This document shows positions 11,328 through 59,544 of a stretch of DNA of 64,000 bases, in pieces. The notes below the pieces were generated by a model. The model ran no database searches and was not told the origin of the DNA. It was given only the letters and a program-made list of their open reading frames with translations. Position 1 is the stretch's first letter; each line of letters begins with the position of its first letter. A program made the position numbers and the translations under genes. This DNA is from Clarias gariepinus (taxonomy: Eukaryota): positions 2,599,451-2,663,450 of the forward strand of contig NC_071110.1 in the NCBI RefSeq assembly GCF_024256425.1, written 5' to 3'.

Positions 11328-11994
11328 TTAACTGAGACTAATTTGAGATTGCCCTAGCATTAAAGCAGGGGGATCAGCATCATTATTAGTGGGTAAAGAG
11401 TCAATTCCATGCTGTGTTAGAACTGCCTCCAAATTTTGTGGTCTGTAGGGATTTTCCCCAAACACATTGTTGATTGCTGCACTGTCCACTGCCATATTTA
11501 AGAGCATGCTTTCCGTCCAGATTTGAGTGGGTGTCCGGTTGTTTTCTGTACGCAAAGCATGGTTGTTCCAGGCCTCCCTAAAGCGGTCAAGGCATTTTTG
11601 AATCTCTGGAAAAAAAACTATGTAAAGAGAAAGTTTGTGGATGTCATTATTGAGATCCAGAAGCTGTGAGTCTTCAAGCGAGTAGAACATGCTGTAAAAG
11701 GATTGCAGCACATGCAAAAACACATCCCTCCAAAGACGTTCGATTCTCTGGTTGTGGACTGATTCCCCTGTAATGAAACTGCGGTGCTCAATACCCTGCA
11801 GAAGATTCATAAATAAGGCCACCTGAAAGTTCTCAACACCATGATCTGATCGGACTCTGGATGGTAGTCCATACAGGCACGTGGCTTTAAGAAACTGAGA
11901 CAGCACAGTGTTGGCACGGTTGTCAGTGTTGCAATTCAGAAAAGTGATCAGCCGAGAATGTCCATCTATGGCTCCATGAACTACGAAACCCCAT
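11328..11994 (-). CDS. Exon 4 of an integrase-like gene, the rve-type catalytic core: (R)WGFVVHGAIDGHSRLI…RVRSDHGVENF…HNQRIERLWRDV… through the stop.
   Basis: The D-D-E pattern of the retroviral/retrotransposon integrase fold: WHIDGNM (previous exon), SDHGVENF (compare HTDNGxEF / HSDRGSQY), and the E in QRIERLWRDV (compare vERfnrtLK). Acceptor ttttag|A; the frame continues from exon 3. Confidence 0.7.
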
Positions 11995-12446
11995 CTAAAA
12001 TGGTGAATACAAAGACAGAACACATACTTGCAGTTATTGGACAAGTAACTATTTAAAGTGTGAAACAACAAATAAATAAAGGCAACAATCAGTTACAAGG
12101 TGTTATGACAATACTGTGTTAGATGTCATCACTGTGTTTTTTAGTACTCTACCACAAGAAATATTTGAGTTGCAACCTACATAATCTAATTCATAATCTA
12201 GACAAACAAAACAGGCTGCCAAGGTTGTACATTAGGTTTACACTCAAGCACACTAATGAAATAGTTAATAGCCAATAAAGACGTCCACTGCATAGGTTAA
12301 TTTTTATCCGACTGCATTGCCAAAGAATTGTCAGTAGAACTGATTTAGTGTCTACTGCATGGCAAAGTCTTGAAAGCCTGACAGTATAGCCTTGACTATA
12401 TTATTACAGTACAGAGGTCATGGATTGTTTGTCAGGATGAATTCAC

Positions 12447-16886: not shown

Positions 16887-17416
16887 CTATTTTGGATCAC
16901 ATAACTTCATAGGGGAATCATAACTCCATATAGAGAACCCAGCATACAGAGGCTGAGTGAATGTGGTGTGCACTGTGTGGAGGAGGCTCATCGTGTCAGG
17001 GACGCTGTAGAAGGACAAAGTTCCTGCATTGTGATCTACATACACTCCTATCCTGGAGGACGCTGAACCTTGGAGCTCAGTTATAATGCTATTGTGCCGG
17101 AAACAAACAGAGGAAGAAGAACACTCCAGACTCCAAGATTGACTGTTGCGTCCAAACCTACACTCTTTGCCCTCTCCTTTTCTGCTGATCTCTTTGTATG
17201 AGACTGATATTTCCACACCAAACCCGCTCCACTCCACCTCCCAGTAACAGCGTCCACGCATACTCTCCTTACACAAGACCTGAGGCCAGGAGTCAAATCT
17301 CTCTGGATGATCAGAGTATCCTTGCTGTTTCCTACTGAGAGTTACATCTCTGTTGTTTTTAAATATAAAGAGTTTGCAGTTTGCTGTGTTGGGATCCAGA
17401 GTCAGATAATTAAAAT
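16887..17416 (-). CDS. finTRIM-like locus 1, B30.2/PRY-SPRY exon (…DFNYLTLDPNTANCKLFIFKNNRDVTLSRKQQGYSDHPERFDSWPQVLCKESMRGRCYWEVEWSGFGVEISVSYKEISRKG…RIGVYVDHNAGTLSFYSVPDTMSLLHTVHTTFTQPLYAGF…*).
   Basis: Canonical B30.2 motifs (LDPNTA, CYWEVEW, SYKxIxRKG, GVYxDHxAGTLSFY). Acceptor tttcag|ATTTTAAT at ~17417. Confidence 0.75.
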
Positions 17417-19948: not shown

Positions 19949-20524
19949 CTGTTTTTCAGTCCTTTCCGTTTTAGTTGAAACAGTATCATGTCCTTTATGG
20001 TCGTCTATCGTACACAAGTAACAGATGAAGCTTTGGTCAGTACGACAGTAGATCTCAGTCAGTTTGTCATGCTGAGAGCAGATCTTCTCTTGAAGCTTTG
20101 CACAAGGTTCTATTAACTTGTGCTTTTTAAAAGCAGGAGACTGATAGTGAGGTTGAAGATGATCTTCACAATAGGAGGTCCTGCACACCAGACAGGAATT
20201 GGCAGCTTTGCGTTTTCTCCCGGTGCAGGAATCACACTCCACATCTCCAGGTCCAGCGTAACAGTGAGCCCTAGAAGCAGCTTCGAGTTTGGACTTCTTC
20301 TCCACCACTTCAGCCAGACTCCATAAAACAGGTCTTGAAGTGAAAGTCTCTCTATGCTTGGGGCAGCTGTAGACTCTCCTTCGATCCTGGCAATTCCCGA
20401 AGTCATTACTACACACCTTACCGAAATTGTGGCCTCGGGGAGTAGTCACTGGATCACTCAAAGGGTTCAGACACACTGCACAGCTGAACTGATCCTGATT
20501 TACTGAAATATTTGCCTCTGCCAT
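19949..20524 (-). CDS. finTRIM-like locus 1 RING + B-box exon with substituted zinc ligands ([38 protein letters not shown]…[15 protein letters not shown]…CDSCTGRKRKAANSCLVCRTSYCEDHL…).
   Basis: The finTRIM N-terminus, but PCGHxFC reads PRGHNFG and CPQCR reads CPKHR. The B-boxes (CDxC…CLVCxxSYCEDH; CSQHDK…YCRTDQSFICYLC) are intact. Donor AAACAG|gtcaga. Confidence 0.7.
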
Positions 20525-20565
20525 TTTCCTACACTCACACACACTTGTTCAGAAAGAAACATTTG

Positions 20566-20577
20566 AGTTTCGTTTTC
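20566..20577 (-). promoter_or_regulatory. ISRE (GAAAACGAAACT on the gene strand) ~45 bp 5' of the locus-1 ATG. The shared motif GTGTGGCTTTAAAAA is at 20629-20643.
   Basis: Exact match to the ISRE consensus GAAANNGAAACT. Repeated at the paralogs (see separate features). Confidence 0.6.
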
Positions 20578-21205
20578 TTTTGAAAAAGCTTCCTGGTTCT
20601 GTTTATGGTGTAAATTGACAGAGAGAGGTGTGGCTTTAAAAAGACAGGGAGTTCTGTGTTCTGGTAAATGCTCTTCTCTGTGATTTACAGATTTTTATTA
20701 ATTGAGTTCTGCATAGATTTTTTCATAAATATGACCTAAAACATATAGACAATATTATATGTATTCATTTGTTTATACATATATAATATCAGTTTATTTG
20801 AAATGTAATAATTCATTGCCCAATAAAAAAAAAAATCACTATCTGCATTTATCTAAGGAAATGGTTAAGAGGCTTCCACTGGATAATTACTGCAGTGATT
20901 AATATGGTTTAACTGGTATCAAGTTATTTAACGCTCACTGATGCAGTGAGGAGCTTCTCATTTCCCATGTCAGAAGACATACGCTGTGGTCGTGGCGAAA
21001 ACTATACTCTTTTTTTAAAAGGGTCAAATTATCATTGTGCATCAAACAAAGAAAAGAACTAAGGAGACTGCTAATACTTGAACTGGTTAAAAACCTTGAA
21101 GAACCTCGAAGAGGTAGAAAATGTGATTGAAAATCATCCCGAATAAGCATGTTGGGAGATCACTCAAACACATGGTTAAGTAAATAAATATGAATAAAAA
21201 TAAAT

Positions 21206-21811: not shown

Positions 21812-22000
21812 GCAGTTTCTAATTACTGCACAACATTCTGATTTTCCTCATCCCAGAAACGATTAATACACTGCTAGCAGAAATTGTGACCACAGGGAGT
21901 AGTCACTGGAACATTCAAGAGATCCAGACAAACTGCACAGCTGAACTGATCCTGATCTACTGAAATACCTGCCTCTGACATTTTTATGGACTGATACACT
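21812..22000 (-). pseudogene. Truncated 5' fragment of a finTRIM RING exon with its own promoter ([47 protein letters not shown]), broken off at ~21812.
   Basis: Near-identical to 62570-62900 (locus 4 start). It has an in-frame TAG where locus 4 has AAG/AAA. An ISRE lies at 22054-22065 and GGCGTGGCTTTAAAA at 22111-22126. Confidence 0.65.
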
Positions 22001-24179
22001 GACAATGGGAGAGAGAGAGAAAGAGGGCGGGAAAATGCAGCTTATCTAAAAGAAGTTTCGTTTTCTCAGAAAGTAGCTGGTTGTGTGTGTGTACAGTGTG
22101 TAAGAGAGCTTGGGCGTGGCTTTAAAACAGGAGATTTTAGATTAAATGAAATCAAACTTTAGATTAAATGAAATCAAATTCTCTGTAAAAAAATTTGTTT
22201 CAATACTACATACTGAAAATAAAACATATTTTGCCACAGAAGCATTTAAACTGTATCTGAGTCAAAGAGAAATAATAAAAAAAAAAATGGTATGAAGAAA
22301 TTGGAGGACAAAAAAGGCAGAATTAAAAAGCAGATGCATAAGGGTAAAACTAAACAAATTAAACAAGCCAAAATAAAATAGAACCCCACTCCGCTGGCTT
22401 CACACCTGTGTGAAAACACTGCAATGTGCAAATTATTTAAAATTTTTGCTTTAGAATTGCAAAAGTAAAGTACCCAAGGATGTTTTTTTTTTTAATCAAC
22501 TGTGTATACAATAAAGATATGTCATATATTATCATACAGTACACACAGGTGTCCCTAGTTGATTAACATGGCTTACATTTTATAAATGTGTAATGAATTT
22601 ATTAAAATTAACCTGGCAAATGGCAGACTTACTTTACATTCTGTGTAAATGTCATTATCAGTAAAGAACTAAAATATAACATACAGAATATTTATTTTAA
22701 TCAAGAAGTGAAGCAGTGAGATAATGTTTGTGTTCAGTGATTTTTGTCTACGATTATCATTAAAGACCAAACCTATTTTTGATTATACATTTGTATATAC
22801 AGTAATGTTCAACTTTTTTTCATGGCCAGCCCAATTAAGCCCACAATAAATATAGATTTTAATAAAGACATAATTTTCCACAATTTCTCCCACACATGCT
22901 CTAAGCCCGCGAATGTTTAAGTGTCCAGTGTGTTGGAGAAACGTGCAGGACATCGCCAGGCCTCGGTGTCAAGAAACACTTTACCAAAGTGTTATTCATC
23001 ATTCATCCAGACCTTTAGGTGGCGGTAGTGTACCACCTACTTTGCCTGCCGCAGATCTAATAGAAAAGAAGACCAAGAAGAAGAAAGAGTGGACAGTGAA
23101 GATCGCTTTCTAAATTAAGTGCGTAGTTATTACTGACAAGGAGTCAAAATGGAAGTCAAAACTACAGCGTCTGTAATAGAAAAACATGTAGTATAATTTA
23201 AATAAAATTACACAGCTTACGTTTGTTCTTACACTGCAAAAGGAATTCAGACGCTACCTGTGGTTTAGCATGTGGATTAGCATGTCTGGGTGACTAACAT
23301 TGGTGATGTTGAAAGTTGTTGTGGTTGTTTGTTTGTTTGTTTGTTTGCTTGTTTATCATTTAATGGTAAAAATCAGTCAGCTGGTTACGGTGTTATTATT
23401 AGGCTGGTCCTGAGTTAACCCTTAGGGGTCTAAGGCATTTTTGAAGACCTGCAGTGATTCAGTGCTCTTCTTAAATTTGTGTAAATTTCAAATATTCTAC
23501 TACTACCAATATAGTAGTTAATACATTTTTCATTTATTTATGTAGAGCACAAACTGGGCTTTCATAATGTGGCTGATATAAAAATGTCATAATGACACAA
23601 GATTCATGTGCAACTTTTAAACTTATGTCAAATTGCAGATACAAAAAAATCCAATTGCAAACTTTAGCAGAAAAGAAGAGAAAAAAGATAATAAATCTGG
23701 CAGATAGTTTTGAACACAGAAATGAGTTCATGAAAATGTTGGGTGTGTGTCCATAGGAAACAACTCAATTATACAGAAACACTCAGAAAAACCTGTAATT
23801 TAAGGGCAAAGTGTAAACTGATGTGCCTAACTATTTCAGAGCCTCTGTTTCACTAAATAATCTATTACTTATCATAAGTATGTAAGACACCTGGATCAGG
23901 TAACATCAGGTTTCACCTAGGGCTCCTATTGTCTCAGCTGTTACACCTACACACTCAGACTCCTCACACAAACCGGGCTTCTTCTGATATAAAAATAAAG
24001 CATGGTTTTTAAAACATTAATTGAAATACAATTAATATGTACACACACACAAAAAACTACACAGCAAAAATATGTTATAGTATATTATGACTGAAATAAG
24101 GTGCCTCATATCAGCACACGTTTTGCGCAGCACCACAAAGGCAGCGTTTTTTTGGCGAGTATAAATCTGTGTTTGTTGT

Positions 24180-27745: not shown

Positions 27746-28274
27746 TTACAATACATTTGTGTCACATAACCTTACAGATGAGTTTTTAGCCATACAGAAC
27801 CCAGCGTACAGAGGCTGAGTGAATGTGGTGTGGACTCTGTGGAGGAGCCTCATTGTGTCACAGATACTGTAGAAGGACAGAGTTCCTGCGTTGTGATCCA
27901 CATACACTCCTATTCTAGAGGTCATTGGACCTTGGATATCGGTTTTGATTTTGTTGTGCCAGAAACAGACAAAGGAAGACGAACACAGCAGAGTCCAAGA
28001 CTGACTGTTGAATCCAAGCAAACACTCATGACCCGTTCCTTTCCTGCTGATCTCTTTATATGCAACTGATATGGATACAACCCCGCTCCACTCCACCTCC
28101 CAGTAACAGCGTCCACACACACTCTCCTTACACAACACCTGTTCCCAGTAGTTAAATCTCTCTGGTTGATCAGAGTATTGCTGGTGTGTTTCACTGCGTG
28201 TCACTGATCTGTTCTTCTCAGACAGAATGAGTTGATGATGTGCTGTGGTGGGATCCAGAGTCAGATAACAGAAA
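27746..28274 (-). CDS. finTRIM-like locus 2 B30.2 exon (ILDFCYLTLDPTTAHHQLILSEKNRSVT…VCGRCYWEVEWSGVVSISVAYKEISRKGTGHEC…GVYVDHNAGTLSFYSICDTMRLLHRVHTTFTQPLYAGF…*).
   Basis: B30.2 motifs; acceptor ttttag|ATTTCTG. 552-nt open frame. Confidence 0.75.
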
Positions 28275-28319
28275 TCTAAAATTAATAAAATGTCCACAGG
28301 TTAGATATTAATGGGATGT

Positions 28320-31057: not shown

Positions 31058-31639
31058 CTGTTTTTCAGTCCTTTCCGCTTTAGTTGAAACAGTATCATGA
31101 CCTTTATGGTCGTCTATCGTACACAAGTAACAGATGAAGCTCTGGTCAGTACGACAGTAGATCTCAGTCAGTTTGTCATGCTGAGAGCAGATCTTCTCTT
31201 GAAGCTTTGCACAAGGTTCTATTAACTTGTGCTTTTTAAAAGCAGGAGACTGATAGTGAGGTTGAAGATGATCTTCACAATAGGAGGTCCTGCACACCAG
31301 ACAGGAATTGGCAGCTTTGCGTTTTCTTCCAGTGCAGGAATCACACTCCACATCTCCAGGTCCAGCGTAACAGTGAGCCCTAGAAGCAGCTTCGAGTTTA
31401 GACTTCTTCAGCTTTTCCACCACTTCAGCCAGCCTGCGTTGAACAGGTCTAGAAGTGAAAGTTTCTCTATGCTTGGGGCAGCTGTAGACTCTCCTTTGAT
31501 CCTTGCAATTCCCGAAGTAATTACTACACACCTTACCGAAATTGTGGCCACGGGGGGTAGTCACTGGATCCCTTAAAGGGTTCAGACACACTGCACAGCT
31601 GAACTGATCCTGATTTACTGAAATATTTGCCTTAGCCAT
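31058..31639 (-). CDS. finTRIM-like locus 2 RING + B-box exon with the same ligand substitutions as locus 1 ([61 protein letters not shown]…).
   Basis: PRGHNFG and CPKHR are shared with locus 1. An ISRE is at 31681-31692 and GTGTGGCTTTAAAAA at 31743-31758. Confidence 0.7.
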
Positions 31640-31680: not shown

Positions 31681-31692
31681 AGTTTCGTTTTC
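31681..31692 (-). promoter_or_regulatory. ISRE (GAAAACGAAACT) 5' of locus 2.
   Basis: Exact consensus match, ~45 bp upstream of the ATG at 31639. Confidence 0.6.
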
Positions 31693-32059
31693 TTTTGAAA
31701 AAGCTCCCTGGTTCTGTTTATGGTGTAAATTGACAGAGAGAGGTGTGGCTTTAAAAAGACAGGCTTTGACATGTAGAGAATTATTTTCTATAAATGCTCT
31801 TTTTATTAATTGAGTTCTACAGACTATTACTCAAGTAACTTCTTTCTACTGAAAGAAAGGAGACAAAAATATTATATGTTTTCATTTGTTTATACATATA
31901 TAATTTCAGTTTATTTGAAATGTAATAATTCACTGCCCAATTAAAAAAAATTACTATCTGCATTTATCTAAGCCAGTAGTTAAGAGCATTTCCTTTCAGA
32001 CACAGTGAGTGACAATACAATACAAGACAAGAACTCAAATGATTAATGACTAAATATCT

Positions 32060-33755: not shown

Positions 33756-35361
33756 CAGTGGTGTGAAAAATTATTTGCCCCTTCCTGATTTCCAATTCTT
33801 TTGCATGTTTGTCACACTTAAATGTTTCTGCTCATCAAAAACCGTTGACTATTAGTCAAAGATAACATAATTGAATACTAAATGAAGGTTTACGTTATTT
33901 AGGGAGAAAAAAAATCCAAACCTACATGGCCCTGTGTGAAAAAGTGATTGCCCCCCTTGTTAAAAAATAACTTAACTGTGGTTTATCACAGCTGAGTTCA
34001 ATTTCTGTAGTCGCCCCCAGGCCTGATTACTGCCACACCTGTTTCAATCAAGAAATCACTTAAATAGGAGCTACCTGACACAGAGAAGTAGACCAAAAGC
34101 ACCTCAAAAGCTAGACATCATGCCAAGATCCAAAGAAATTCAGGAACAAATGAGAACAAAAGTAATTGAGATCTATCAGTCTGGTAAAGGTTATAAAGCC
34201 ATTTCTAAAGCTTTGGGACTCCAGCGAACCACAGTGAGAGCCATTATCCACAAATGGCAAAAACATGGAACAGTGGTGAACCTTCCCAGGAGTGGCCGGC
34301 CGACCAAAATTACCCCAAGAGCGCAGAGACAACTCATCCGAGAGGCCACAAAAGACCCCAGGACAACATCTAAAGAACTGCAGGCCTCACTTGCCTCAAT
34401 TAAGGTCAGTGTTCACGACTCCATCATAAGAAAGAGACTGGGCAAAAACGGCCTGCATGGCAGATTTCCAAGGCGCAAACCACTTTTAAGCAAAAAGAAC
34501 ATTAAGGCTCGTCTCAATTTTGCTAAAAAAACATCTCAATGATTGCCAAGACTTTTGGGAAAATACCTTGTGGACCGACGAGACAAAAGTTGAACTTTTT
34601 GGAAGGTGCGTGTTCCGTTACATCTGGCGTAAAAGTAACACAGCATTTCAGAAAAAGAACATCATACCAACAGTAAAATATGGTGGTGGTAGTGTGATGG
34701 TCTGGGGTTGTTCTGCTGCTTCAGGACCTGGAAGGCTTGCTATGAGAGATGGAACCATGAATTCTACTGTCTACCAAAAAATCCTGAAGGAGAATGTCCG
34801 GCCATCTGTTCATCAACTCAAGCTGAAGCGATCTTGGGTGCTGCAGCAGGACAATGACCCAAAACACACCAGCAAATCCACCTCTGAATGGCTGAAGAAA
34901 AACAAAATGAAGACTTTGGAGTGGCCTAGTCAAAGTCCTGACCTGAATCCTATTGAGATGTTGTGGCATGACCTTAAAAAGGCGGTTCATGCTAGAAAAC
35001 CCTTAAATAAAGCTGAAGTACAACAATTCTGAAAAGATGAGTGGGCCAAAATTCCTCCAGAGCGCTGTAAAAGACTCGTTGTAAGTTATCGCAAACGCTT
35101 GATTGCAGTTATTGCTGCTAAGGGTGGCCCAACCAGTTATTAGGTTCAGGGGGCAATTACTTTTTTACACAGGGCCATGTAGGTGTGGATTTTTTTTCTC
35201 CCTAAATAATAAAAATCATCATTTAAAAACTGCATTTTGTGTTTACTTGTGTTATCTTTGACTAATAGTTAAATGTGTTTGATGATCAGAAACATTTTGT
35301 GTGACAAACATGCAAAAGAATAAGAAATCAGGAGGGGGGCAAATAGTTTTTCACACCACTG
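33756..35361 (+). mobile_element. Full-length Tc1-like DNA transposon, ~1.6 kb. It has ~28-bp TIRs (CAGTGGTGTGAAAAATTATTTGCCCC … GGGGGGCAAATAGTTTTTCACACCACTG) flanked by TA. The transposase is frameshifted.
   Basis: TIRs read directly at 33756-33783 and 35334-35361; a TA dinucleotide on each side. The transposase is split across ORFs 34120-34542 and 34520-35032. Confidence 0.85.
34120..35032 (+). pseudogene. Tc1 transposase broken into two overlapping ORFs by a frameshift near 34520-34542 (MPRSKEIQEQMRTKVIEIYQSGKGYKAISKALGLQRTTVRAIIHKW… / …LWTDETKVELFG…VKYGGGSVMVWGC…DNDPKHTSK…EWPSQSPDLNPIEMLWHDLKKAV…).
   Basis: Paired-like HTH plus a DD34E core, all Tc1 hallmarks; two reading frames. Confidence 0.8.
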
Positions 35362-39019: not shown

Positions 39020-39552
39020 TTATTTCAATACATTTGTGTCACATAACCTTACAGATGAGTTTTTAGCCATACAGAACCCAGCGTATAGAGGCTGAGTGAA
39101 TGTGGTGTGGACTCTGTGGAGGAGCCTCATTGTGTCACAGATACTGTAGAAGGACAGAGTTCCTGCACCGTGATCCACATACACACCTATTCTAGAGGTC
39201 ATTGGACCTTGGATATCGGTTTTGATTTTGTTGTGCCAGAAACAGACAGAGGAAGACGAACACAGCAGAGTCCAAGACTGACTGTTGTATCCAAGCAAAC
39301 ACTCATGACCTGTTTCTTTCCTGCTGATCTCTTCATATGCAACTGATATGGATACAACCCCGCTCCACTCCACCTCCCAGTAACAGCGTCCACACACACT
39401 CTCCTTACACAACACCTGTTCCCAGTAGTTAAATCTCTCTGGTTGATCAGAGTATTGCTGGTGTGTCTCACTGCGTGTCACTGATCTGTTCTTCTCAGAC
39501 AGAATGAGTTGATGATGTGCTGTGGTGGGATCCAGAGTCAGATAACAGAAAT
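39020..39552 (-). CDS. finTRIM-like locus 3 B30.2 exon. It differs from the locus-2 exon by only a few codons.
   Basis: The 184-aa ORF differs from 27746-28297 at ~5 positions (e.g. AYEEISRKETGHEC, VDHGAGTL). Confidence 0.7.
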
Positions 39553-40849
39553 CTAAAATTAATAAAATGTCCACAGGTTAGATATTAATGGGATGTAGTA
39601 GCACAGTGATGTTGGACTACTGATGCGAAGGGTTTAAGTTTAAATCACAGTAGCTGGGCCTGTAAACAAAGCCTTTAGCTCTCAACTGATCAGGTGTCTG
39701 AATGATATAAATGTAAGTCATACTGGATAAGGGCATAATATCTGGTTAAAATGAATCAGATTTAGATGTAAAACACAAACACGTTTAGACAAAGTGTTAG
39801 GGGGTGTTTTACTTACACTGCAGAAACTCCTCTCTGTTTTTTGGCTGTAATATCTGAAATGCTGCAACTGGGGAAAATGATAGAGACAAAAATATGAAAT
39901 TGAAACAGTTTAAAACCTTGTAAGCTCAGATGGACACATCAATTAGACGCCAACTTGGTGGATCAGTCTTCCAATTTTGAATTTAAGATATCACCTGCAT
40001 TTCTATTTCAATTAAATGTAATATTTAGATTTATCATTTCTTTTGACTTTGTCTGGTAAATTTAGCTTGATGTAATTTACAATGTTTATACTCTTAAAGA
40101 CTGAGCAAAAATGGTTTGTGTTAAAACCTACAGTACTGCCATAATTGGTTAGTACACATCACATGATCTGCTACATGAGCAAGTGGAGGAAGAGCCTGAA
40201 AAATGGGAGACATGTGTAATGTAATGTGCAAAATATTTAACAGCGAACAATTTTCAGTTAAAGCCAGTCTGACATCTGAAGTATAATCCTTGAGGAACAA
40301 AAAATATTAGGAATTGATGATTAGGATTACCCTTCTGCTGTGGGAGGTCAGTAAAAAGTGGAGGCGATTATCCATGCTTCAGTCACCAAATATGACTGTT
40401 CAATTACTATAGATGGTTTTTAAAAAGCTTATACAGTGTACTTTAGCCACTGTAGTACTGTTACAAAAATAATAAGTTTAGCTGTTTGCAAGAAGGCCTT
40501 CAAAAAAGAAAAAGAGACGCTCCTGAGCAGCACAGTCTTGGTGCATTATGATACAGAGAAGCCACTAAAGTTGACATGTAATGCCCCCCCATATGAAGTA
40601 GGGACTGTCATATCCAAGAAGAAAAAGTCATGTCAATCCAATCAGTTCTGACAGAAGCTGAAAAAAATTCACAGATCAAAAAGAGGCATTGGCAATCATT
40701 TATTGGGTGAGAATATTCTTATAGTATTTTACTCTATAAGTTTACTCTTCACACATCACAAATCATAAACCATTACTGGCAATGCTAGGGCCAAAAGCAA
40801 CAGTTTCCCACATTAGCTGCTTTAAGGATGCAGGAGTTGCTTTAAGGGG

Positions 40850-41040
40850 CAGGAGTAGCTCAGTGGTTAAGGTGTTGGCCTAATGATTGGAAAGTGCCAG
40901 GTTTAAACCTTAGCATCACTATGTTGACTCTGTTGGGCCCTTGAGCAAGGTCCTTAACCCTCAAATGTTTAGATGTAAAATGTATGCCACTCTATATAAG
41001 GGCGTCTGCCAAATGTCATAAATGTAATGCAGTGCTAGGG
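40850..41040 (+). mobile_element. tRNA-derived SINE (GGGGCAGGAGTAGCTCAGTGGTTAAGG… tail AAGGGCGTCTGCCAAATGTCATAAATGTAATG).
   Basis: Head and tail signatures. Confidence 0.6.
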
Positions 41041-42510
41041 GGTGGATTCTGAGCCTATAGAGGTACAGAATTGAATACAAGAAGTCGTCAGATCACTAAA
41101 ATACTGATGGCATGTCCAGACTATGTGTAGGAGAGAAAGACAAAACAGCATAAAAATCCATGTGTTTTACTTCTCTAATGTAGATACCTTACTAGTGTCT
41201 GTCCATGACATACTGTAAAAGTAAACACCAGAAGGCACCTTATTCTTAGAAAAGTTTGGTGATGCACAATACATGATTGGGCAGCCGCCTAAAAAAGAAA
41301 AAAACTGAAGGTCTACTTTGTGAGGAGACATGGATTCCTTAAGGATTATGGTTGCAACTTGTGAGGTCCCGGGGTGACTGGTCCACCCACCTACTGTATG
41401 AATAATAATTTAAGGAATCTCATGTTAGTCTTAAAGAAACATAATTATTAACTTTGGGATAGCCCGCCAGAACAGGCTGACAAATGTTCTACTTTGTTTA
41501 GAGCCACCTCACTTAGTTACAAGCAAGTCCAAAGCAGGGCAGAGAGATTTGCACCAGTTCCAGTTAGTTAAGATCACATCTGTCTAGACAATGGTCAGGG
41601 TTCAAAATTGAGGAAGTCCAAAATCAGAAAGGGGGAAAAAAGAGCAAGACAGCTGCAAGATGTTTCGGACTATTTACTTAATTAGTGCAGGGAGGCAGCA
41701 GGAGATGCTTCGTTTACATTGACTATAGTCTGCTGAGACTGAAGCAGTATTTACCATTGAGGGGGGAAAAATGCACTACTTTACATCACTTCTACTGCTT
41801 CTAGTCCCTTCATACGTAGTGAGGAGAAATCTTCTGAAATGGAAGTGTCAGAGCAGAACCCAAGTCTGAAAAACAACCTACCAAGGCTCTTACTCCTCCA
41901 ACAAACATAAATGTTGTTGCTGTTCACCAGTGGTCCAGTGATAGAGATATCCTGAAAGCCTCAGAAGGGCTCACTGTAACGTCCTTCAGTATAGAAGAAA
42001 ATAAAGATCACATACTGTCGACAGACAGAGTTGTTAGCGAACGTGCAGTTTACTTTTTGTTTTTATTCACATGCCCAATGACAAATTACACACACGTAGT
42101 TACGTCGTCCCGCTTGACGTGCTTATGCGCTTACGTCAGAGTCAGGATGCAGAAAACAGAAAACTTGGAACAGGACTACAGTACATGCAAACACTACATC
42201 CACCAGAGACTAGACTTGTAATTAATTATACTTTAAAAGAGAAATATAGAAAATTTTACAGTGATGTATGAAAGCATTTTTTAATTGATTTAGATTGTGT
42301 TGCTTTTACCGTAGAGATCATTTAGCCTGTGTCAGTACCTCAGAGAGGTTCTATTTAGGTGATTCTAAGTGTGATCTTTGAGAAACCCACATGTTGTGAC
42401 AAATACTTTGTGATTTTATGCAGTTTTGTTCCTGTGTTCACTTATTTCTGTTAGATGAATTTTATGGCCCTCTGTACTGTGATGTAGAACAAAAATGTTT
42501 GTTTCTTTAC

Positions 42511-42634
42511 CTTGTGAACAGATTTTGTTGAATTCCTCCTCACAGATTTCCTCGACCCGTTTTTTCAGATCTGAGAGAGATTTCCTCACTTCATCAAATG
42601 AGAGATGTTGATTGACAGTGAAGCTGGGTGAGTC
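42511..42634 (-). pseudogene. Copy-III internal ftr exon (…SDLKKRVEEICEEEFNKICSQ). It is intact in itself, but the locus downstream is degenerate. The paralogous coiled-coil exon 2 is deleted (homology breaks at ~42737). The coiled-coil exon at ~42850-42952 has lost its acceptor (ctcag|AATGAAC has become cgcatAATGAAC).
   Basis: Direct comparison with 18255-19058 and 29082-29881. Confidence 0.5.
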
Positions 42635-43295
42635 CTCACATCCAGGAGAAGCACAGAGAGACGGGAAACTCTACAGAGAGGAAACACATCATAGAGAAGG
42701 AGAAAAGTGTAGGAGGGGAACGAATGAATCTCAGACTTTATTATCTCATACTGTATAGGAACATTTAGTTGCATTTTGTTGTTGTTTTTATGTTGTTGTT
42801 TTTTAGTTTGTGCATGTGTTCAGGAGAATTTCTCTTTTTACTCCTTACCGAAATCATGTCAGCAATCTGTCTCAGCCACCTCTTCTGCTTCTCCTGGATC
42901 ATCTGCTGGAATTTAATTTGTTCTTCCTTTAGTTCATTATGCGAAAAAATAAATAAATCTCATTATTTCTCAGTATTAACTGCAGCTAAACATTTAAACT
43001 TGACATTTAAACTACAGTATGTATACTCAATGTTGATTGATGTTACTTTTTAAAGTAACTAACTACAATACATTACAAAATTACTGTCATTAAAAAGTAA
43101 CCAATTTTATAACAGCGTTATTTTCTGATAAAAGTAACTAGTTTGAGTACTTTTCCATTGCAGATAATAAAAACTTGTTTGTGATTCATGCATGTTGTTT
43201 TAGTCAAGATCTTAATAATTATTCTACCTTCATCTCTCAGCGAAGTTTGGCTTATAATCTGTAAACTTGTAATGCTCCTATCTCACTTACGCGGT

Positions 43296-43460
43296 GGCCT
43301 TAAGTAGGTTCATCATGATTCACTGCGAGTTTTGGCGCTGTGATTAGGTTTCCATTTTTCTGTGCGACTTCATGAAACGTCCGGCAGTCACTCGTGACGA
43401 CTCACAGTGACTAACACCGATTCTCACCGCAAGTCAAATCGCATAGGTGAGATAGGGGTA
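43296..43460. repeat. Inverted partial copy of the sequence flanking the 47.4-kb minisatellite (43296-43356 is the reverse complement of 47343-47400). It is followed by a TAGGTGAGATAGGGGTAT seed unit at ~43444.
   Basis: Read directly. The palindrome GTCACTCGTGACGACTCACAGTGAC lies at ~43388-43412. Confidence 0.55.
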
Positions 43461-45820
43461 TAACAGCAGGAATAACAGAGGGAGCGGGTTATCAGGGGCG
43501 GGGCTTGCAGGATGACTTTTACACACACACATTAACGGAATGACTGCTGTCTGGCTTACGGATTACATAAATTGTCTAAATAATGGATTACATTTTTGAA
43601 AATATAACTTAATAACTGAGTACTTAAATGGCGGACCTACAGTAACGCGTTAGATTACTTGCTACATATAAAAAAGTTTTCCAAGTACTCTAACGCTACT
43701 TTGTAACACGTTACACCCAACACTGAGTATAATGATGAAAATAGAACATTTAATTGCGAACTATACTAAAATCTTACTTAACTAAAATAAAACGATTTTA
43801 ACTTCTAAACTTCTACAAAATTACAATGCATTAAAAAAAGGAATATTGTGAATAAGTTTTGCATAATTTAATTCAGAAAGCGAAACTCATATTCTAGATT
43901 CATAACACATTACACGAATATTTCAAGCCTTTTTGGCTTTTATTTCGATGATTATAGCTTACAGCACATGAAAATTCCAGTATCTGAAAATATTAGAATT
44001 TTTTTTAATCTTTCAAAGACCTTCCAATGAATTTTAAAAGGTTTTACAAAACAGAAATGTCCAACTTCTAAAAAGAACAGGTGGTGGCACTGTCTGAGTC
44101 GTTGTTGAAGACCAGGTTGCTTTGATAACAGCCATCAGCACGTCAGTATCATTGAGTCGGGTGTTTCTCATCTTCCTCTTGACAGTAGCCTGTAGATCAT
44201 CTATTGGATTCAGGTCAGATGAGTTGGCTGGTCAATTAAGCACAGTAATATCATGGGCAGCAAACCAGTTATGGTTGTTTGGTTATCGTGGACAGGAGCT
44301 AAGTTCTGGTGAAAATAAAATCAGCATTTCAATGAATCTCATCAGCAGACAGAAACATGCAGTGCTCTAAAATGTTCTGACACTCCTGACGTTATCTCTG
44401 GTCCAGGAGTGGTTTGATGTTAGGAATGCAACAGTTGTAGCTCATTTCCTGAAGGAGTCTAGGCGGGTGGCTTTTGATGCACTGACTTCAGCCTTGCACC
44501 CCTCCTTGTGAAGCTCTTCCATGTTTTTGAATCAGGTTACAGTAGCTTGACAATCTTCTTAAGGTTGTGGTCATCACAGTTCATTTTGCAACTTTTTCTA
44601 CCACACTTTTGCCTTCCAGGTAACTTTGCATGAATATACTTCAATGCAGCCTTTTGTAAACAGCCAGCCATTTTAGTAATGACCTTCTGTGGCTTTGTCT
44701 CCCTATAGAGGGTGTCACTAATTATCTTCTACAACAGTCAAGTCAGTAGTCTTCCCTATGATTGTGGTTGCATATACTGAACCAGACTGAGAGATACATG
44801 GTATTTATTATATATGAATAGTATTTTACTCAACTCATGAGCTGTAAGCCATAATCATCAAGTAAGGCTTGAAATATTTTACTTCTTGTGTAATGAATTT
44901 AAAAAATATAAGTTTCACTTCATATAAAAAAATCCACAATATTCTAATTTGCTTCTATTAATTAATTTTTGCACTATACAACCATAAAGGGTAATGAGAG
45001 CCTTCCTAAAAACTTTTTAGGACTGTTGCCTGTCAAGTTTACTAAAAGAAACCAAACTAAACATGAAACAACTTCTATCCACATAATTCCATGCATTTTT
45101 ATACACGATAAGTAATGCATGTGCTACAGAAACTTTAAGCTAGTTTAGGAAAATCTACTGTCATGAAATATATCATAAATCCACCCACATTGTTGATTGT
45201 CTGAGATAATTAAATAATAAAAAAAGTAAGTTTCATAAACATACGTGTTTGTTAGAAAGACCATTCCTGAAGCCTACTGTAGTTATCCTTGGTTCTTATT
45301 TCTTGATTGGAGTAATCCAGCAGACTCAGTCCTAAACTTGGGTGTCATATGCTTTATACTCTTTATGTTATAATTGTAGGGTTAGGGTTAATGTTTATAT
45401 TGAGATATTTCAGCTAGACCAAGGCGAAGAGTCAATTTAACCACACAAACACCTCTTACGTCATTTAGTTAATGCCAATTTAAAAGTGTTTTGTGTGAAT
45501 GTTTTGTATTTATTGTTGTCTTATCTGTCTAGCACATAGTATATTGACCATAACAAATCCTTACAATGATTTTACAGAGAAAGTGTATTTACATTAATAT
45601 GCTAAATATATGCTTTCAAAGTTTGTATATATGGCTTTGATTTGAAAGTACAAAGTGTATTTTATTTAAGCCTTATAGAGTTTTAAGACTTTCTATAACA
45701 GGGAACTTTACTGTGCACTTTGTTTTATTCCTGTTAGTTAGAATACAATAGAATTTTATCAAAAACCCTTCTGCTTTACATCAATTTACAATAAACATTT
45801 AAAAATCTGAAATGATTTTC

Positions 45821-45851
<31 letters not shown>

Positions 45852-46365
45852 GCCTTGAGTACATATGTGTACTTATACTTTTCAGAGGCCCGATATGTTC
45901 TATGTACAATCCTTGTTTTATTGATTGCATCTAATATTCTAATTTTCTGAGATTGTGGATTTGGGGTTTAAGCCATAATCATCTCAATTATGACAAATCA
46001 TGGTTTGAACTATCTTGAGTCTATCTCATATATTAGTTTCACTTTTTAAGTTAATGTTATTAAATTAACTTTTTAAGTTAATATAATTAACGTTTGCACG
46101 ATATTCAAATTTTTCAAGTTCCACCTGTACAGTATAAGGCAAAATTAAATCAAGAGCCCTTACAATTGTGTTTAACTTAAACTTGACCCACTGATTGTTT
46201 TATTGAGCAAGAACATCTCTCACCCAGACACAACAGTGGTTTATTAATTATCAGTGATTCATAGAAGTTAGATTACAAATTATATATATATATTTTTTTT
46301 TTATATATTATTAAAAATATTTTACGTCAATGTACATGAAAAAATAACAACATTAAAGCTCTTAC

Positions 46366-46953
46366 CTGTTTTTCAGGTCTTTCTCCATTGGTATCTGTAT
46401 CATAGCATTTATGTTCATACATCTTGCACAAACAACAAATAAAATTTTGGTCAGTACAAGAACAAATCTTGATCAGTTTGTCATGCTGAGAGCAGATCTT
46501 CTCTTGGAGATCTGCACAGACTTCCACTGACTTGTTCTTCTTAAAGGCAGGAAACTGATAGTGAGGTTTAAGATGATCTTCACAATAGGAGGCCAGACAC
46601 ACCAGACAGGAATTAACAGCCTTATATTTTCTCCTGGTGCAGAAATCACACTCTACATCTCCAGGTCCAGTGTAACAGTGAGCAGGAGAAGCAGCTTGAG
46701 GTTCAGTCTCTTTTAGTTCCTTCACCTTTTTATTCAGCATGTTGTTCCTTCGTAAAACAGGCCTTGGAGTGAAAGTGTCTCTACACTGGGGGCAGCTGTA
46801 GACACCTTTCACATCCTCCTGATCCCAGAAGCCATAAATACACACCTTACAGAAACTGCGGCCACAGGGAAGAGTCACTGGATCGTTTAGGAGATTCAGA
46901 CACAACGAACACCTGAACAGATCCTGGGATTTTAAAATCTCAATCTTTGCCAT
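46366..46953 (-). CDS. finTRIM-like RING + B-box exon with a largely canonical RING ([65 protein letters not shown]…). Possibly the 5' exon for locus 3.
   Basis: The C3HC4 cysteines are present (His replaced by Arg in PCGRSFC). B-boxes present. Donor AAACAG|gtaaga. Confidence 0.6.
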
Positions 46954-47396
46954 TTTTGTAACTCACACACTGAGTGAGAGAGAGGAAGAGAGAGAGATGC
47001 ACTCAAGGTTTACATCTTCTAAAAAAAGAGAGCTTTTTGATCTTATAAATGTTATGACATGACACAAAGAGCAGGCGTGACTTTAAAAAAAATGGTTCAG
47101 GCTTTAACCCTTTTCCAGCTGGCTCAACCACAGAAAAGCTGACTATGACCGCTTTACTTATTCATCAAGTTGCTGAGCTAAAATGTTATTAGCAAGTAAA
47201 TAAAAATATAAAAAACATACATGTTTTTGATTTTCTACTCATTGCATAGTGAAGATATATTATCACATTTAGGCCCTAAATTTAATTTAAGTCTGAGTTT
47301 AAGTTGTTTTATTTCTACAGGCATGTAGAGAAAGTATTGTGAAGATGGAAACCTAATCACAGCGTCAAAACTCGCGGTAAATCATGATCAAAACCG

Positions 47397-55967: not shown

Positions 55968-56491
55968 TTATTTTGGATCACATAACCTCATGGTTGAGTT
56001 ATACCATACCCTGAACCCAGCGTACAGAGGCTGAGTAAATGTGGTGTGAACTGTGTGGAGGAGCCTCATCGTGTCAGAGACATTGTAGAAGGACAGAGTT
56101 CCTGCATTGTGATCCACATACACTCCTATTCTTGTAGAAGCTGGTCCTTGGACCTCAGTCTTTACATTGTTGTGCCAAAAAGAGACAGAAGAAGAAGAAC
56201 AACGCAGACTCCAGGACTGACTGTTATAGCCAAACCCACACTTATTACCTCCACCTTTCCTGCAGATCTCTTTATATGAGACTGATATGGAGACACAAAC
56301 GCTCCACTCCACTTCCCAGTAACAGCGTCCACACACACTCTCCTTACACAACACCTGAGTTCTGGAGTCAAATCTCTCTTGGTGACGTGTGTATCGCTGT
56401 TTTGTCAAAATATGTTTTACTGCTCTGTTCTCCTCAGACAGAAGGAGTTGACAATGTGCTGTGTTGGGATCCAAAGTCAAATAACAGAAAT
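55968..56491 (-). CDS. finTRIM-like locus 4 B30.2 exon (…DFCYLTLDPNTAHCQLLLSEENRAVKHILTKQRYTRHQERFDSRTQVLCKESVCGRCYWEVEWSVCVSISVSYKEICRKGGGNKCGFGYNSQSWSLRC…GVYVDHNAGTLSFYNVSDTMRLLHTVHTTFTQPLYAGF…*).
   Basis: B30.2 motifs; acceptor ttttag|ATTTCTG. Confidence 0.75.
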
Positions 56492-56639
56492 CTAAAACGA
56501 TAAAATGTCCATAGGTTAGATGGTAATCCACAGTTTATCTCATGACATTATTATCTATCAAGAGAGCAATTAAACAGTTAGTTGTCATAGTTGATGCTTT
56601 AAAACAGTAAAAATAGACAATAGTCAGAATCTGAACAAC

Positions 56640-57175
56640 TTTGATAAGAGCCAAGGTTTACTGATGTGCATGAGACACGAAGGCTAGCCCATATGGAAGA
56701 GCTGGCACCAGGTTGCACAATGGTAAGAAAGCAAGCCAGTGGAGGTGGTCTGATTTTCTGGGTAATTTTTTTGCTAGGAAGCCTTGGGTTTTGCTATTCA
56801 TAAGGATGTTATTTTGACTTGTACTGTACCACCTACCTAAACATTGTTGCAGACCAGTACAGCCCTTCATGGAAAGGGTTTTCCTGGATGGCAGTGGGTT
56901 CTTTTAGCAAAATAATGCACTGCAAACATTGTTCATGGAATGTTTTAAGGAACATGCCAATGAGATTGATGACTAGACCAATTGAGTGTCTGTGGGATGT
57001 GCTGGAAAAACGTCAGATCCATGGAGACATCACCTCACAACTTACAGGACTTAAGGAATTAGCTTGGTTCCAGTTACCAAAGCAAACCTTCAGAGGTCAA
57101 CTCAGAGTTGTTTTGGTGGCACAAGGAGAACTAAGCAAGATAAGTAAGAAGATTATAATCATATGACTGATCTGT
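56640..57175 (+). mobile_element. Tc1-like transposase C-terminal fragment (…ECLWDVLEKRQIHGDITSQLTGLKELAWFQLPKQTFRGQLRVVLVAQGE…).
   Basis: Similar to the Tc1 transposase C-terminus (NSPDLNPIEHLWDVL…). Confidence 0.55.
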
Positions 57176-57208
57176 GAATAATAACACAGGGGTGTAAGAG
57201 ACACATGT

Positions 57209-58079
57209 ACAGTGGAACCTCGGATTGCGAGTAACATGCTTTGCGAGTGTTCTGTAAGAGGAGCAAAGAATTTTTATAAATTTTTACTGTAAAAACTAGC
57301 AAATCTTGGTTTATGTGTACCGAGTGTCATGTATCACGCATGCGCTTCTTGTTTTAATGCCGAGTGTCATGTGGTCACAACTGTGCCAATGTTTTTTTTT
57401 TCTCTCTTGCACTACGGAATTGTGGGTAATCGTCTCCCCTGCTGGGTCTTAGTGCTCGTCTGTTACTGGTATCCGTGCACCCGTGTACTCGTTTACTATA
57501 ACACTGTGACCACGTGTGGCACATAAAACCTCTTATAATTTGTGTTTGTATGTGTGTGTGTGTGTGCAGCGTGCATGTACTGTTTATTATAACACACGTG
57601 TATGCGCGCGTGTAAAGCAAAAGAAAGTCTCATTAGAAGGGGTTAAAGATCCATTTTCTCTCTCCCTCTCTGTATCAGCCTGTCGTTTGCTTCTGTGTGC
57701 GCGCGTCTTTGGACACTGTGCCCCTTTACACACACACCCCTCCTTTCGCTTTCACACAAACACACACACCCACCCTCTCCTTCTCTCGTTTTCACACACA
57801 CACTATGCTCTACACAGAAACACTGCTCTGCCTGCCGCACAAACGGAAACACTTATTTGTTGGTTTTTTTTTTTTACTTAAAGGTAAAGTGCAGGTTATT
57901 TTGTTTTATTTTTACTTTATATTTTGTGTTAATTATTTTTAAGTATTTAATTTTTTGGGCTGTAGAATGAATAATTTGAGTTATTATTATTTCTTATAGG
58001 AAGATTTGCTTTGATTTTAGTGTTTTGAAATATGAGCCATTCCAGAACAAATTATGCTCGTAATCCAAGGTTCCACTGT
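57209..58079. mobile_element. Non-autonomous DNA transposon (MITE-like, ~870 bp) with ~24-bp TIRs (TACAGTGGAACCTCGGATTGCGAG … CTCGTAATCCAAGGTTCCACTGTA). It is inserted next to the Tc1 remnant and contains CA/GT-rich low-complexity DNA.
   Basis: The TIRs are perfect reverse complements, read directly. A TA lies on each side. Confidence 0.7.
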
Positions 58080-58163
58080 ATGTGTTTCTACATGCATGTG
58101 ATACTCTATATGAAATATGTTAAAAATTACCTAACCTCAGTGAGAGGGTAAAATCGGTCAAAA

Positions 58164-58194
<31 letters not shown>

Positions 58195-59513: not shown

Positions 59514-59544
<31 letters not shown>

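What the first reader, a model, noticed from the sequence alone, without database searches (positions are those of the whole stretch)
20560..20645. Perfect ISRE (GAAAACGAAACT) plus a shared GGCGTGGCTTTAAAA motif upstream of three ftr loci and the truncated fragment
On the gene strand, GAAAACGAAACT sits 25-110 bp 5' of the ATG at 20566-20577, 31681-31692 and 62816-62827. It also sits at 22054-22065 beside the truncated ftr fragment. Each time, GGCGTGGCTTTAAAA lies ~60 bp further 5'. The ISRE consensus is GAAANNGAAACT, and finTRIMs are known interferon/virus-induced genes, so this is probably the cis-element behind that induction. The 46.9-kb RING exon lacks it. The ISRE sits between the TATA-like TTTAAAG and the ATG, so it may lie in the 5' UTR.
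Basis: partly seen in the sequence, partly recalled or inferred. Interest (0 to 1): 0.6.

Follow-up and report, generated by a model that had tools for sequence, protein, structure and literature searches.

The report
Conserved interferon-response element in catfish finTRIM promoters
Upstream of several virus-defence (finTRIM) genes of an African catfish sits a textbook interferon-response DNA motif, part of a short promoter cassette kept at the same place in finTRIM genes from eels to catfishes; it is real and probably functional, but it is the ordinary kind of switch expected for interferon-induced genes.

Summary
GAAAACGAAACT occurs four times in the window, with none expected by chance. 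All four are on the gene strand, 53-109 bp 5' of a finTRIM RING-exon ATG. A TTTTAAAGCCACRCC box lies 50-64 bp further 5'.

The window is Clarias gariepinus. Copies A/B and T/D are recent duplicates, so the window holds only about two independent lineages. Between those lineages the only alignable non-coding DNA is the 84-bp block from the TATA-like box to the ISRE.

I fetched finTRIM loci from 10 other fishes. Of 12 strict ISRE matches in 290 kb, 11 lie within 110 bp 5' of a finTRIM ATG, from moray eel to catfish.

One is an ETS-like 13-mer, CAGAACCAGGAAG, exactly 11 bp 5' of the ISRE in catfishes. The other is a TTC that makes a GAS-like TTCNNNGAA overlapping the ISRE.

The 12-mer equals the human PKR ISRE. 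ISRE-bearing, IFN-responsive finTRIM promoters are already published (zebrafish ftr42). The TSS, and so whether the ISRE lies in the 5' UTR, could not be tested. The local genes look partly degenerate.

Verdict: a real, conserved, ordinary ISG promoter element.

The parts
20566..20577 (-). ISRE GAAAACGAAACT of finTRIM gene A (-53 from ATG at 20524)
20589..20601 (-). ETS-like box CAGAACCAGGAAG of gene A, 11 bp 5' of the ISRE
20627..20641 (-). TATA-like plus CACCC-type box TTTTAAAGCCACACC of gene A
19949..20524 (-). Gene A exon 1 (RING/B-box). Three RING zinc ligands are substituted. The gene continues to the B30.2 exon at 16890-17414.
22054..22065 (-). ISRE of the truncated fragment T (-84 from ATG at 21981). 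TTC at 22069-22071 makes a GAS-like TTCTGAGAA at 22063-22071.
22113..22127 (-). TTTTAAAGCCACGCC box of fragment T. The ETS-like box is deleted in this copy.
21841..21981 (-). Truncated finTRIM exon-1 fragment T (about 47 codons, then a stop)
31681..31692 (-). ISRE of gene B (-53 from ATG at 31639)
31704..31716 (-). ETS-like box of gene B, CAGAACCAGGGAG (GGAA core changed to GGGA)
31742..31756 (-). TTTTAAAGCCACACC box of gene B
31058..31639 (-). Gene B exon 1, with the same RING ligand losses as A. The gene continues to 27761.
62806..62817 (-). ISRE of gene D (-109 from ATG at 62708). A GAS-like TTCTGAGAA lies at 62815-62823.
62829..62841 (-). ETS-like box of gene D, CACAACCAGGAAG, 11 bp 5' of the ISRE
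62873..62887 (-). TTTTAAAGCCACGCC box of gene D
62127..62708 (-). Gene D exon 1. Its product is identical to the Clarias gariepinus 'TRIM25-like' protein P0121 (454 aa), which lacks the coiled-coil exons.
47074..47088 (-). TTTTAAAGTCACGCC box of gene C. The ISRE position downstream is decayed (tagaagatgtaaacc).

Best explanation
The 84-bp block at 20564-20641, and its copies at 22.0-22.1, 31.7 and 62.8-62.9 kb, is the proximal promoter cassette of finTRIM (TRIM25-like) genes of Clarias gariepinus.

Its parts, 5' to 3' on the gene strand:
1. A TATA-like TTTAAAG box fused to a CACCC/GC-type box (CCACRCC).
2. An ETS-like box, CAGAACCAGGAAG.
3. Exactly 11 bp (one helical turn) later, a canonical ISRE, GAAAACGAAACT. 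In most family members a TTC precedes it and creates an overlapping GAS-like TTCNNNGAA.

Inferred mechanism:
- After virus sensing or type I IFN signalling, ISGF3 (STAT1-STAT2-IRF9) and/or IRF3, IRF7 or IRF1 bind the ISRE and switch on transcription.
- The ETS-like box, which could also be a degenerate second IRF site, and the TATA/CACCC boxes supply basal or cell-type input.
- The cassette is copied along with each gene in tandem duplications. This would explain why the family as a whole is IFN/virus inducible.

Shown here: the motifs, their positions, their non-random occurrence, and their conservation across paralogues and across teleost orders.

Inferred only: factor binding, IFN responsiveness of these copies, and the position of the ISRE relative to the TSS. 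From the TATA geometry the ISRE would lie at about +30, but this was not measured.
For: 1. Chance is excluded. There are 4 exact 12-mers against 0 expected, 5 copies of the TATA/CACCC box against 0.06 expected, and 3 ETS-like boxes against 0.1 expected. All lie only upstream of finTRIM RING exons.
2. Paralogue footprint. Between the A/B and D lineages, coding exon 1 is about 80% identical, yet the only alignable non-coding DNA is the 84-bp TATA-to-ISRE block (76%). Outside the ISRE that block is about 72% identical, so 12 of 12 identical bases has a probability of about 0.02 per comparison. This is a rough estimate of my own.
3. Cross-species test. RING exons were located by coding homology alone in 10 other fishes. 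Of 12 strict GAAANNGAAACT matches in 290 kb on both strands, 11 lie on the gene strand within 110 bp 5' of a finTRIM ATG (nominal binomial P about 1e-24). They occur in Tachysurus, Pangasianodon, Ameiurus, Ictalurus, Metynnis, Electrophorus and Gymnothorax.
4. Conserved partners. The 13-mer CAGAACCAGGAAG (at most 1 mismatch) lies at a fixed 11 bp in all catfishes that have it, and at 20-33 bp in the electric eel, trout and moray eel. TTC sits at -6..-4 in 11 of 14 promoters. Information content is 1.84 bits in ISRE columns, 1.03 bits at -12..-1, and 0.4-0.5 bits in the flanks.
5. Decay pattern. The decayed copies carry the changes expected of a methylated CpG: GAAAACAAAACT in T. fulvidraco and trout, and GGAAACAAAACT in Silurus b. 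Retention of the CpG elsewhere argues for constraint.
6. Precedent. The 12-mer is the human PKR ISRE (PMC3509664). The zebrafish ftr42 5' flank has putative ISREs and responds to SVCV, poly(I:C), IRF3, IRF7 and IFNphi1 (PMC10973201). ISRE mutation abolishes induction of the fish herc7c promoter (PMC10003058). finTRIMs are IFN/virus induced as a family (PMC13030082).
Against: - There are no expression, binding or TSS data for this locus.
- The four local copies amount to about two independent lineages. Cross-species hits share ancestry, so the binomial P is nominal only.
- The local genes look degenerate. A and B have lost three RING zinc ligands, and their RING scores below the Pfam threshold. 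C and D lack the coiled-coil exons. T is a stump. The ISRE may therefore be a relic here.
- Six of 20 promoters lack a recognisable ISRE: Clarias C, Pangasianodon b, Silurus a, Electrophorus b and Metynnis b/c. It is therefore not obligatory for the family.
- The TATA-like/CACCC box is confined to catfishes.
- One sturgeon TRIM25-like gene lacks the cassette.
Confidence: 0.7

Rival explanations
1. Relic by descent. The ISRE was functional in the ancestral finTRIM promoter. In this Clarias cluster it persists only because the duplications are recent. The genes, and hence the elements, are no longer under selection.
For: A and B are 90% identical, so they are recent duplicates. Three RING ligands are lost in A/B and the RING scores below Pfam gathering. 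The coiled-coil exons are missing in C/D. The ISRE is also kept beside a dead stump, T. C has already lost its ISRE.
Against: The A/B and D lineages have diverged to about 72-76% in the promoter, yet keep 12 of 12 ISRE bases including a mutable CpG. Exon-1 ORFs stay open over about 200 codons in A, B, C and D. D is annotated as a protein-coding gene in C. gariepinus.
Confidence: 0.15
2. IRF/ETS element for constitutive or lineage-specific expression. The GAAANNGAAA core, together with the GGAA box 11 bp away, is used by IRF1, IRF2 or IRF8 with PU.1/ETS factors in leukocytes, rather than by ISGF3 after interferon.
For: An ETS-like CAGGAAG box is conserved at fixed spacing next to the ISRE. ISRE and IRF-E sequences overlap in specificity (established knowledge).
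Against: The full 12-mer with the 3' ACT is the ISGF3-type ISRE, identical to the PKR ISRE. The family is IFN/virus induced, and an ftr promoter responds to IFNphi1. The two uses are not mutually exclusive.
Confidence: 0.08
3. The block is not the core promoter but the 3' end of a 5'-UTR intron. The (CT)n tract plus CAG just before the ATG would be a splice acceptor. The ISRE would then be an intronic or alternative-promoter element, and the true TSS would lie far upstream.
For: In many catfish copies a long CT-rich tract followed by CAG...GCAG|GAAAATG precedes the ATG.
Against: Copies A and B, the moray eel and the trout lack a convincing polypyrimidine-AG acceptor at that place, yet keep the ISRE and ETS boxes. 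No conserved donor or upstream exon is seen. The constant 54-62 bp spacing between the CACCC box and the ISRE in catfishes, set against a variable ISRE-ATG distance, fits a core-promoter cassette followed by a variable 5' UTR microsatellite.
Confidence: 0.06
4. Chance matches, or part of a dispersed repeat or transposable element that happens to lie near these genes.
For: The window contains transposon remnants: Tc1-like at 34.1-35.0 kb, an integrase ORF at 11.3-12.1 kb, and a UnaL2 LINE tail at 61.85 kb.
Against: Zero matches are expected by chance. The motifs occur nowhere else in the window. The element sits at the same place relative to the ATG in seven other species. There is no Rfam or repeat match at the site.
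Confidence: 0.01

Closest known systems
ISRE of interferon-stimulated gene promoters (e.g. human PKR/EIF2AK2, GAAAACGAAACT)
   Same: The 12-mer is identical (PMC3509664). It fits the consensus GAAANNGAAACT and lies close to the start of a gene from an IFN-inducible family.
   Different: Binding of ISGF3 or IRFs, and IFN responsiveness, were not tested here. By TATA geometry the element would lie just 3' of the TSS rather than about 100 bp upstream, but the TSS is unknown.
Published finTRIM promoters with putative ISREs: zebrafish ftr42 (PMC10973201) and crucian carp FTRCA1 (cited there)
   Same: Same gene family and the same kind of element in the 5' flank. Reporter activation by virus, poly(I:C), IRF3, IRF7 and IFN has been shown for ftr42.
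   Different: The species differs (a siluriform, Clarias gariepinus) and the paralogues differ. Those papers, as far as I could read them, do not describe the conserved ETS-like box, the fixed 11-bp spacing or the GAS overlap.
Composite GAS/ISRE and ETS-IRF elements of mammalian ISGs
   Same: TTCNNNGAA overlaps the first GAA of the ISRE in 11 of 14 promoters, and a GGAA-core box lies next to an IRF-type site.
   Different: The classical EICE is GGAANNGAAA with a 2-bp spacer. Here the boxes are 11-33 bp apart. Copies A and B lack the GAS-like TTC register. Function is untested.

Membership tests
ISRE (ISGF3/IRF-binding interferon-stimulated response element) | Sequence matches the consensus GAAANNGAAACT | tested here: met
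   Four exact GAAAACGAAACT matches. The sequence is identical to the human PKR ISRE.
ISRE (ISGF3/IRF-binding interferon-stimulated response element) | Located in the proximal regulatory region of an IFN-inducible gene | tested here: inconclusive
   The element lies 53-109 bp 5' of finTRIM ATGs. The TSS is unknown. IFN inducibility is known for the family but not for these genes.
ISRE (ISGF3/IRF-binding interferon-stimulated response element) | Evolutionary conservation beyond the flanking DNA | tested here: met
   11 of 12 consensus hits in 290 kb lie at finTRIM promoters in 8 species. ISRE columns carry 1.84 bits against 0.4-0.5 bits in the flanks. An 84-bp block is the only non-coding alignment between the paralogue lineages.
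ISRE (ISGF3/IRF-binding interferon-stimulated response element) | Bound by ISGF3/IRFs and required for IFN induction | not testable with these tools
   This needs EMSA or ChIP and reporter mutagenesis.
finTRIM (ftr) / TRIM25-like gene family | RING, B-box, coiled-coil and B30.2 (PRY-SPRY) architecture | tested here: inconclusive
   A and B have all exon classes, but three RING ligands are substituted (RING 20.6 bits, below the 30-bit cut-off). C and D lack coiled-coil exons 2-3. T is a stump.
finTRIM (ftr) / TRIM25-like gene family | Closest relatives are teleost finTRIM ('fish virus induced TRIM') proteins, and the genes lie in tandem clusters | tested here: met
   Hits of 65-87% identity carry the names finTRIM family member, Fish virus induced TRIM protein or TRIM25-like. 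The window holds four genes plus a fragment, all on one strand.
GAS element (STAT dimer site) | Palindrome TTCNNNGAA | tested here: inconclusive
   Present and overlapping the ISRE in T and D (TTCTGAGAA) and in 9 foreign promoters. Absent in A and B (TTCAAAAGAA, N4) and in T. ichikawai.
ETS-binding site | GGAA core in a CAGGAAGT-type context | tested here: met
   CAGAACCAGGAAG occurs in A, and with one flank mismatch in D. The core is mutated in B and deleted in T. It is conserved in 10 of 14 ISRE-bearing promoters. The box is also only 2 mismatches from GAAANNGAAAST, so it may instead be a degenerate IRF site.
TATA box | TATAWAWR about 25-35 bp 5' of the TSS | tested here: inconclusive
   TTTAAAG is a non-canonical variant. 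A second candidate, (C)TATAAC, lies about 30 bp 5' of the ISRE in catfishes. The TSS is unknown. The box is absent outside Siluriformes.

The most novel reading that the evidence does not exclude
finTRIM genes carry an ancestral regulatory cassette shared across teleosts and older than 200 million years. It consists of an ETS/IRF-like 13-mer plus a GAS-overlapping ISRE, placed at or just 3' of the TSS. The cassette is co-duplicated with every gene copy, and this is what makes the whole, rapidly expanding family interferon-inducible. Orphan copies such as the 22.0-kb stump, 1.5 kb upstream of gene A, could persist as IFN-responsive enhancers, alternative promoters or non-coding transcripts.
Probability: 0.3. 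Interest if true: 0.45.

Novelty: new member of a known kind. Interest (0 to 1): 0.3.

Why it matters
The result gives a concrete, testable cis-regulatory explanation for why finTRIMs behave as interferon-stimulated genes. Because the promoter cassette travels with the gene, tandem duplication would automatically produce new IFN-inducible paralogues.

The integrity of the ISRE could serve as a cheap predictor of which of the dozens of finTRIM copies in a fish genome are still IFN-responsive. The relevant distinction is an intact CpG against CpG-to-CpA decay.

For an aquaculture species (African catfish) it also marks candidate IFN-responsive promoters.

It does not change what is known about ISG regulation.

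Tried and rejected
- **TSS mapping from transcript contigs.** I looked up a Logan-derived homologue (P0109) hoping for an RNA-seq contig. Both contigs were genomic (exon followed by an intron), so they gave no TSS information.
- **Outgroup test.** I checked a sturgeon TRIM25-like gene (L013). There is no ETS/ISRE cassette within 160 bp of the ATG, only a 1-bp-spaced GAAATGAAAC and a SINE. With a single gene this is inconclusive for the age of the cassette.
- **Literature.** I found no paper describing a family-wide finTRIM promoter module. A search for the ETS-like string returned only unrelated primers. The FTRCA1 and ftr01/42/58 papers, and the ftr42 supplement with the ISRE figure, are not held.
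- **Rfam.** The scan of the window found nothing at the sites.
- **Rejected readings.** Chance and a transposable-element origin are rejected.

Full report
**Observation.** GAAAACGAAACT occurs exactly four times in the 64-kb window, all on the minus strand: 20566-20577, 22054-22065, 31681-31692 and 62806-62817. None of 100 dinucleotide-preserving shuffles gave a match. The second motif reads TTTTAAAGCCACGCC on the gene strand. It is exact at 22113-22127 and 62873-62887. It has one mismatch at 20627-20641, at 31742-31756, and at 47074-47088 upstream of the 46.9-kb RING exon. That makes 5 hits against 0.06 expected. Reading the minus strand shows the ISRE starting 53, 84, 53 and 109 bp 5' of ATGs that open RING-finger ORFs. 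The TATA-like box starts about 60-70 bp further 5' (its 3' end lies 47-55 bp from the ISRE). The 46.9-kb copy has only a decayed remnant at the ISRE position. The looser consensus GAAANNGAAACT adds a single further hit, GAAAGCGAAACT at 43876-43887 on the plus strand, in AT-rich non-coding DNA.

**Genes and organism.** The exon-1 product of the 62.7-kb gene hits teleost proteins named 'finTRIM family member', 'Fish virus induced TRIM protein' or 'TRIM25-like', best in catfishes. A composite exon-1 plus B30.2 query found a Clarias gariepinus 'TRIM25-like' protein (P0121, 454 aa) whose sequence matches gene D exactly, including its aberrant B-box 2 end. The window is therefore African catfish, not zebrafish.

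Mapping an intact C. gariepinus finTRIM (P0185, 558 aa) onto the window gives these models:
- Gene A (20524 to 16890) and gene B (31639 to 27761) have all exon classes.
- Gene C (46929 to 39038) and gene D (62708 to 55971) lack coiled-coil exons 2-3.
- T (21981-21841) is a 5' stump with a stop codon.

A and B share substitutions of three RING zinc ligands (PRGHNFGKVC, CPKH), and their RING scores below Pfam's threshold (20.6 against 30 bits). C has the RING His changed to Arg (PCGRSFC). The cluster is thus partly degenerate.

**Independence of the local copies.** A and B are 90% identical over about 1 kb that includes the promoter. T and D are 76% identical over 576 bp. The window therefore holds about two independent promoter lineages, plus C. 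Between the A/B and D lineages exon 1 is about 80% identical. The only non-coding DNA that aligns is an 84-bp block, 20564-20641 against 62804-62887, at 76%. Outside the ISRE that block is about 72% identical. Twelve identical bases out of twelve, including a CpG, is then about a 2% event per comparison; this is my own rough estimate.

**Cross-species test.** I fetched finTRIM loci with 10-kb flanks from ten other fishes:
- Siluriformes: Tachysurus ichikawai, T. fulvidraco, Pangasianodon, Ameiurus, Silurus, Ictalurus
- Characiformes: Metynnis
- Gymnotiformes: Electrophorus
- Salmoniformes: Oncorhynchus
- Anguilliformes: Gymnothorax

All RING exons were located by tblastn alone, giving 15 foreign and 5 local starts. 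In the 290 kb of window plus loci, on both strands, the strict consensus GAAANNGAAACT occurs 12 times. Eleven of those hits are on the gene strand, 53-109 bp 5' of a finTRIM ATG. About 0.06 would be expected if the hits were spread uniformly. The nominal P of about 1e-24 overstates independence, because the copies share ancestry. The point that stands is retention at a fixed place while the flanks are randomised.

Three further promoters carry the CpG-to-CpA decay product: GAAAACAAAACT in T. fulvidraco and trout, and GGAAACAAAACT in Silurus b. Ameiurus carries the neutral CpG-to-TpG form GAAAATGAAACT. Six promoters have no recognisable ISRE.

Anchoring on the ISRE reveals a conserved cassette with further parts:
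- The 13-mer CAGAACCAGGAAG, with a GGAA core in a CAGGAAGT-type ETS context, lies exactly 11 bp 5' of the ISRE in every catfish copy that has it. It lies 20-33 bp 5' in the electric eel, trout and moray eel. The moray eel, electric eel, Pangasianodon, Ameiurus and Clarias A share the 13-mer without a single change.
- In the window it occurs only at 20589-20601, 31704-31716 (core mutated to GGGA) and 62829-62841. It is deleted in T.
- The box is also only two mismatches from GAAANNGAAAST, so it may be a degenerate second IRF site.
- Immediately 5' of the ISRE, TTTCAGA is conserved. Its TTC at -6..-4, present in 11 of 14 promoters, creates a GAS-like TTCNNNGAA overlapping the ISRE. T and D have it; A and B do not.
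- Information content is 1.84 bits per column in the ISRE (biased by selection on the motif), 1.03 bits at -12..-1 (unselected), and 0.4-0.5 bits in the flanks.
There its distance to the ISRE is nearly constant (54-62 bp), while the ISRE-ATG distance varies with a (CT)n microsatellite.

**Mechanism.** The 12-mer is the canonical ISRE of the human PKR promoter (PMC3509664). finTRIMs are induced by virus and IFN as a family (PMC13030082). The zebrafish ftr42 5' flank has two putative ISREs and drives a reporter that responds to SVCV, poly(I:C), IRF3, IRF7 and IFNphi1 (PMC10973201). In another fish ISG, herc7c, mutation of the proximal ISRE abolishes induction (PMC10003058).

The best-supported reading is therefore an ISGF3/IRF-responsive proximal promoter cassette that is duplicated together with each finTRIM gene. 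Factor binding and inducibility of these Clarias copies are inferred, not shown.

A TSS about 30 bp 3' of TTTAAAG would put the ISRE at about +30. The alternative CTATAAC box would put the TSS at the ISRE itself. I could not obtain transcript evidence: the Logan contigs were genomic.

**Rivals.**
- *Relic of recent duplication in a decaying cluster.* This is plausible for individual copies, given the coding defects and the ISRE beside a dead stump.
- *Constitutive or myeloid IRF/ETS element.* This is not exclusive of IFN control.
- *3' end of a 5'-UTR intron.* A CT tract plus CAG precedes the ATG in many catfish copies. However, A and B, the eel and the trout lack a credible acceptor and still keep the boxes.
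- *Chance or transposon origin.* This is excluded.

**Outgroup.** One sturgeon TRIM25-like gene lacks the cassette. As a single gene it is uninformative about the age of the cassette.

**Verdict.** Comparative data now support it across about five teleost orders. It is nonetheless the expected kind of element for an ISG family, and ISREs in finTRIM promoters are already published. The modest new content is the deep conservation of a composite ETS-like / GAS-overlapping-ISRE cassette with fixed spacing. I found no description of this in the searchable literature.

Noticed in passing
window 43876-43887 (+): A fifth ISRE-consensus match, GAAAGCGAAACT, lies in AT-rich DNA inside the long first intron of gene C, on the opposite strand. 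Gene C's own promoter ISRE has decayed. With 0.22 hits expected per window, this may be chance.
   Followed up: partly
window 19949-20524 and 31058-31639 (-): Genes A and B share substitutions of three RING zinc ligands (C to R, C to G, C to H: PRGHNFGKVC...CPKH). The B-box, coiled-coil and B30.2 exons remain open. The RING scores below Pfam gathering. They may be RING-dead finTRIMs or young pseudogenes.
   Followed up: partly
window 39038-46953 and 55971-62708 (-): Genes C and D lack coiled-coil exons 2-3. D is nevertheless annotated in Clarias gariepinus as a 454-aa TRIM25-like protein (P0121) with a corrupted B-box 2. C has the RING His changed to Arg.
   Followed up: partly
window 27746-28297 vs 39020-39574 (-): The B30.2 exons of genes B and C are nearly identical, and flanking motifs at 28620/39896 and 28724/40000 are duplicated. 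Their exon 1 sequences are only about 75% identical. This suggests a segmental duplication or gene conversion that makes C chimeric.
   Followed up: no
window 21841-22367 (-): The orphan promoter plus 47-codon stump (T) lies 1.5 kb upstream of gene A on the same strand. It keeps the ISRE, the GAS-like overlap and the TATA/CACCC box but has lost the ETS-like box. It could act as a distal ISRE or alternative promoter for A.
   Followed up: no
window 34120-35032 (+): A Tc1/Sleeping-Beauty-like transposase is split into two frames (HTH_Tnp_Tc3_2/HTH_SB, then DDE_3). It lies between genes B and C.
   Followed up: partly
window 11328-12071 (-): A 247-aa ORF carries a strong integrase core domain (PF24764 rva_4, E = 3e-84). 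It is probably a mobile-element remnant downstream of gene A.
   Followed up: partly
window 61847-61900 (+): Rfam finds a UnaL2 LINE 3' element (59.5 bits) in intron 1 of gene D.
   Followed up: no
L005 3440-3480 (Silurus asotus): In one Silurus finTRIM promoter the original ISRE position has decayed. The ETS-like box has changed to GAAACAGAAAGT, which fits the ISRE-type consensus GAAANNGAAAGT. This may be turnover of the site within the cassette.
   Followed up: no
L003, L005, L008 promoters: The decayed ISREs are the CpG-to-CpA products GAAAACAAAACT and GGAAACAAAACT. Deamination of the methylated CpG may be the usual route by which finTRIM copies lose the element.
   Followed up: partly
catfish promoters, e.g. 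window 62895-62910 (-), L002 9850-9880: A second TTAAAGCC-type box (CTTTAAAGCCTRAAC) lies about 24 bp 5' of the TTTAAAGCCACRCC box in most catfish copies. The TATA-like box is thus itself tandemly duplicated.
   Followed up: no
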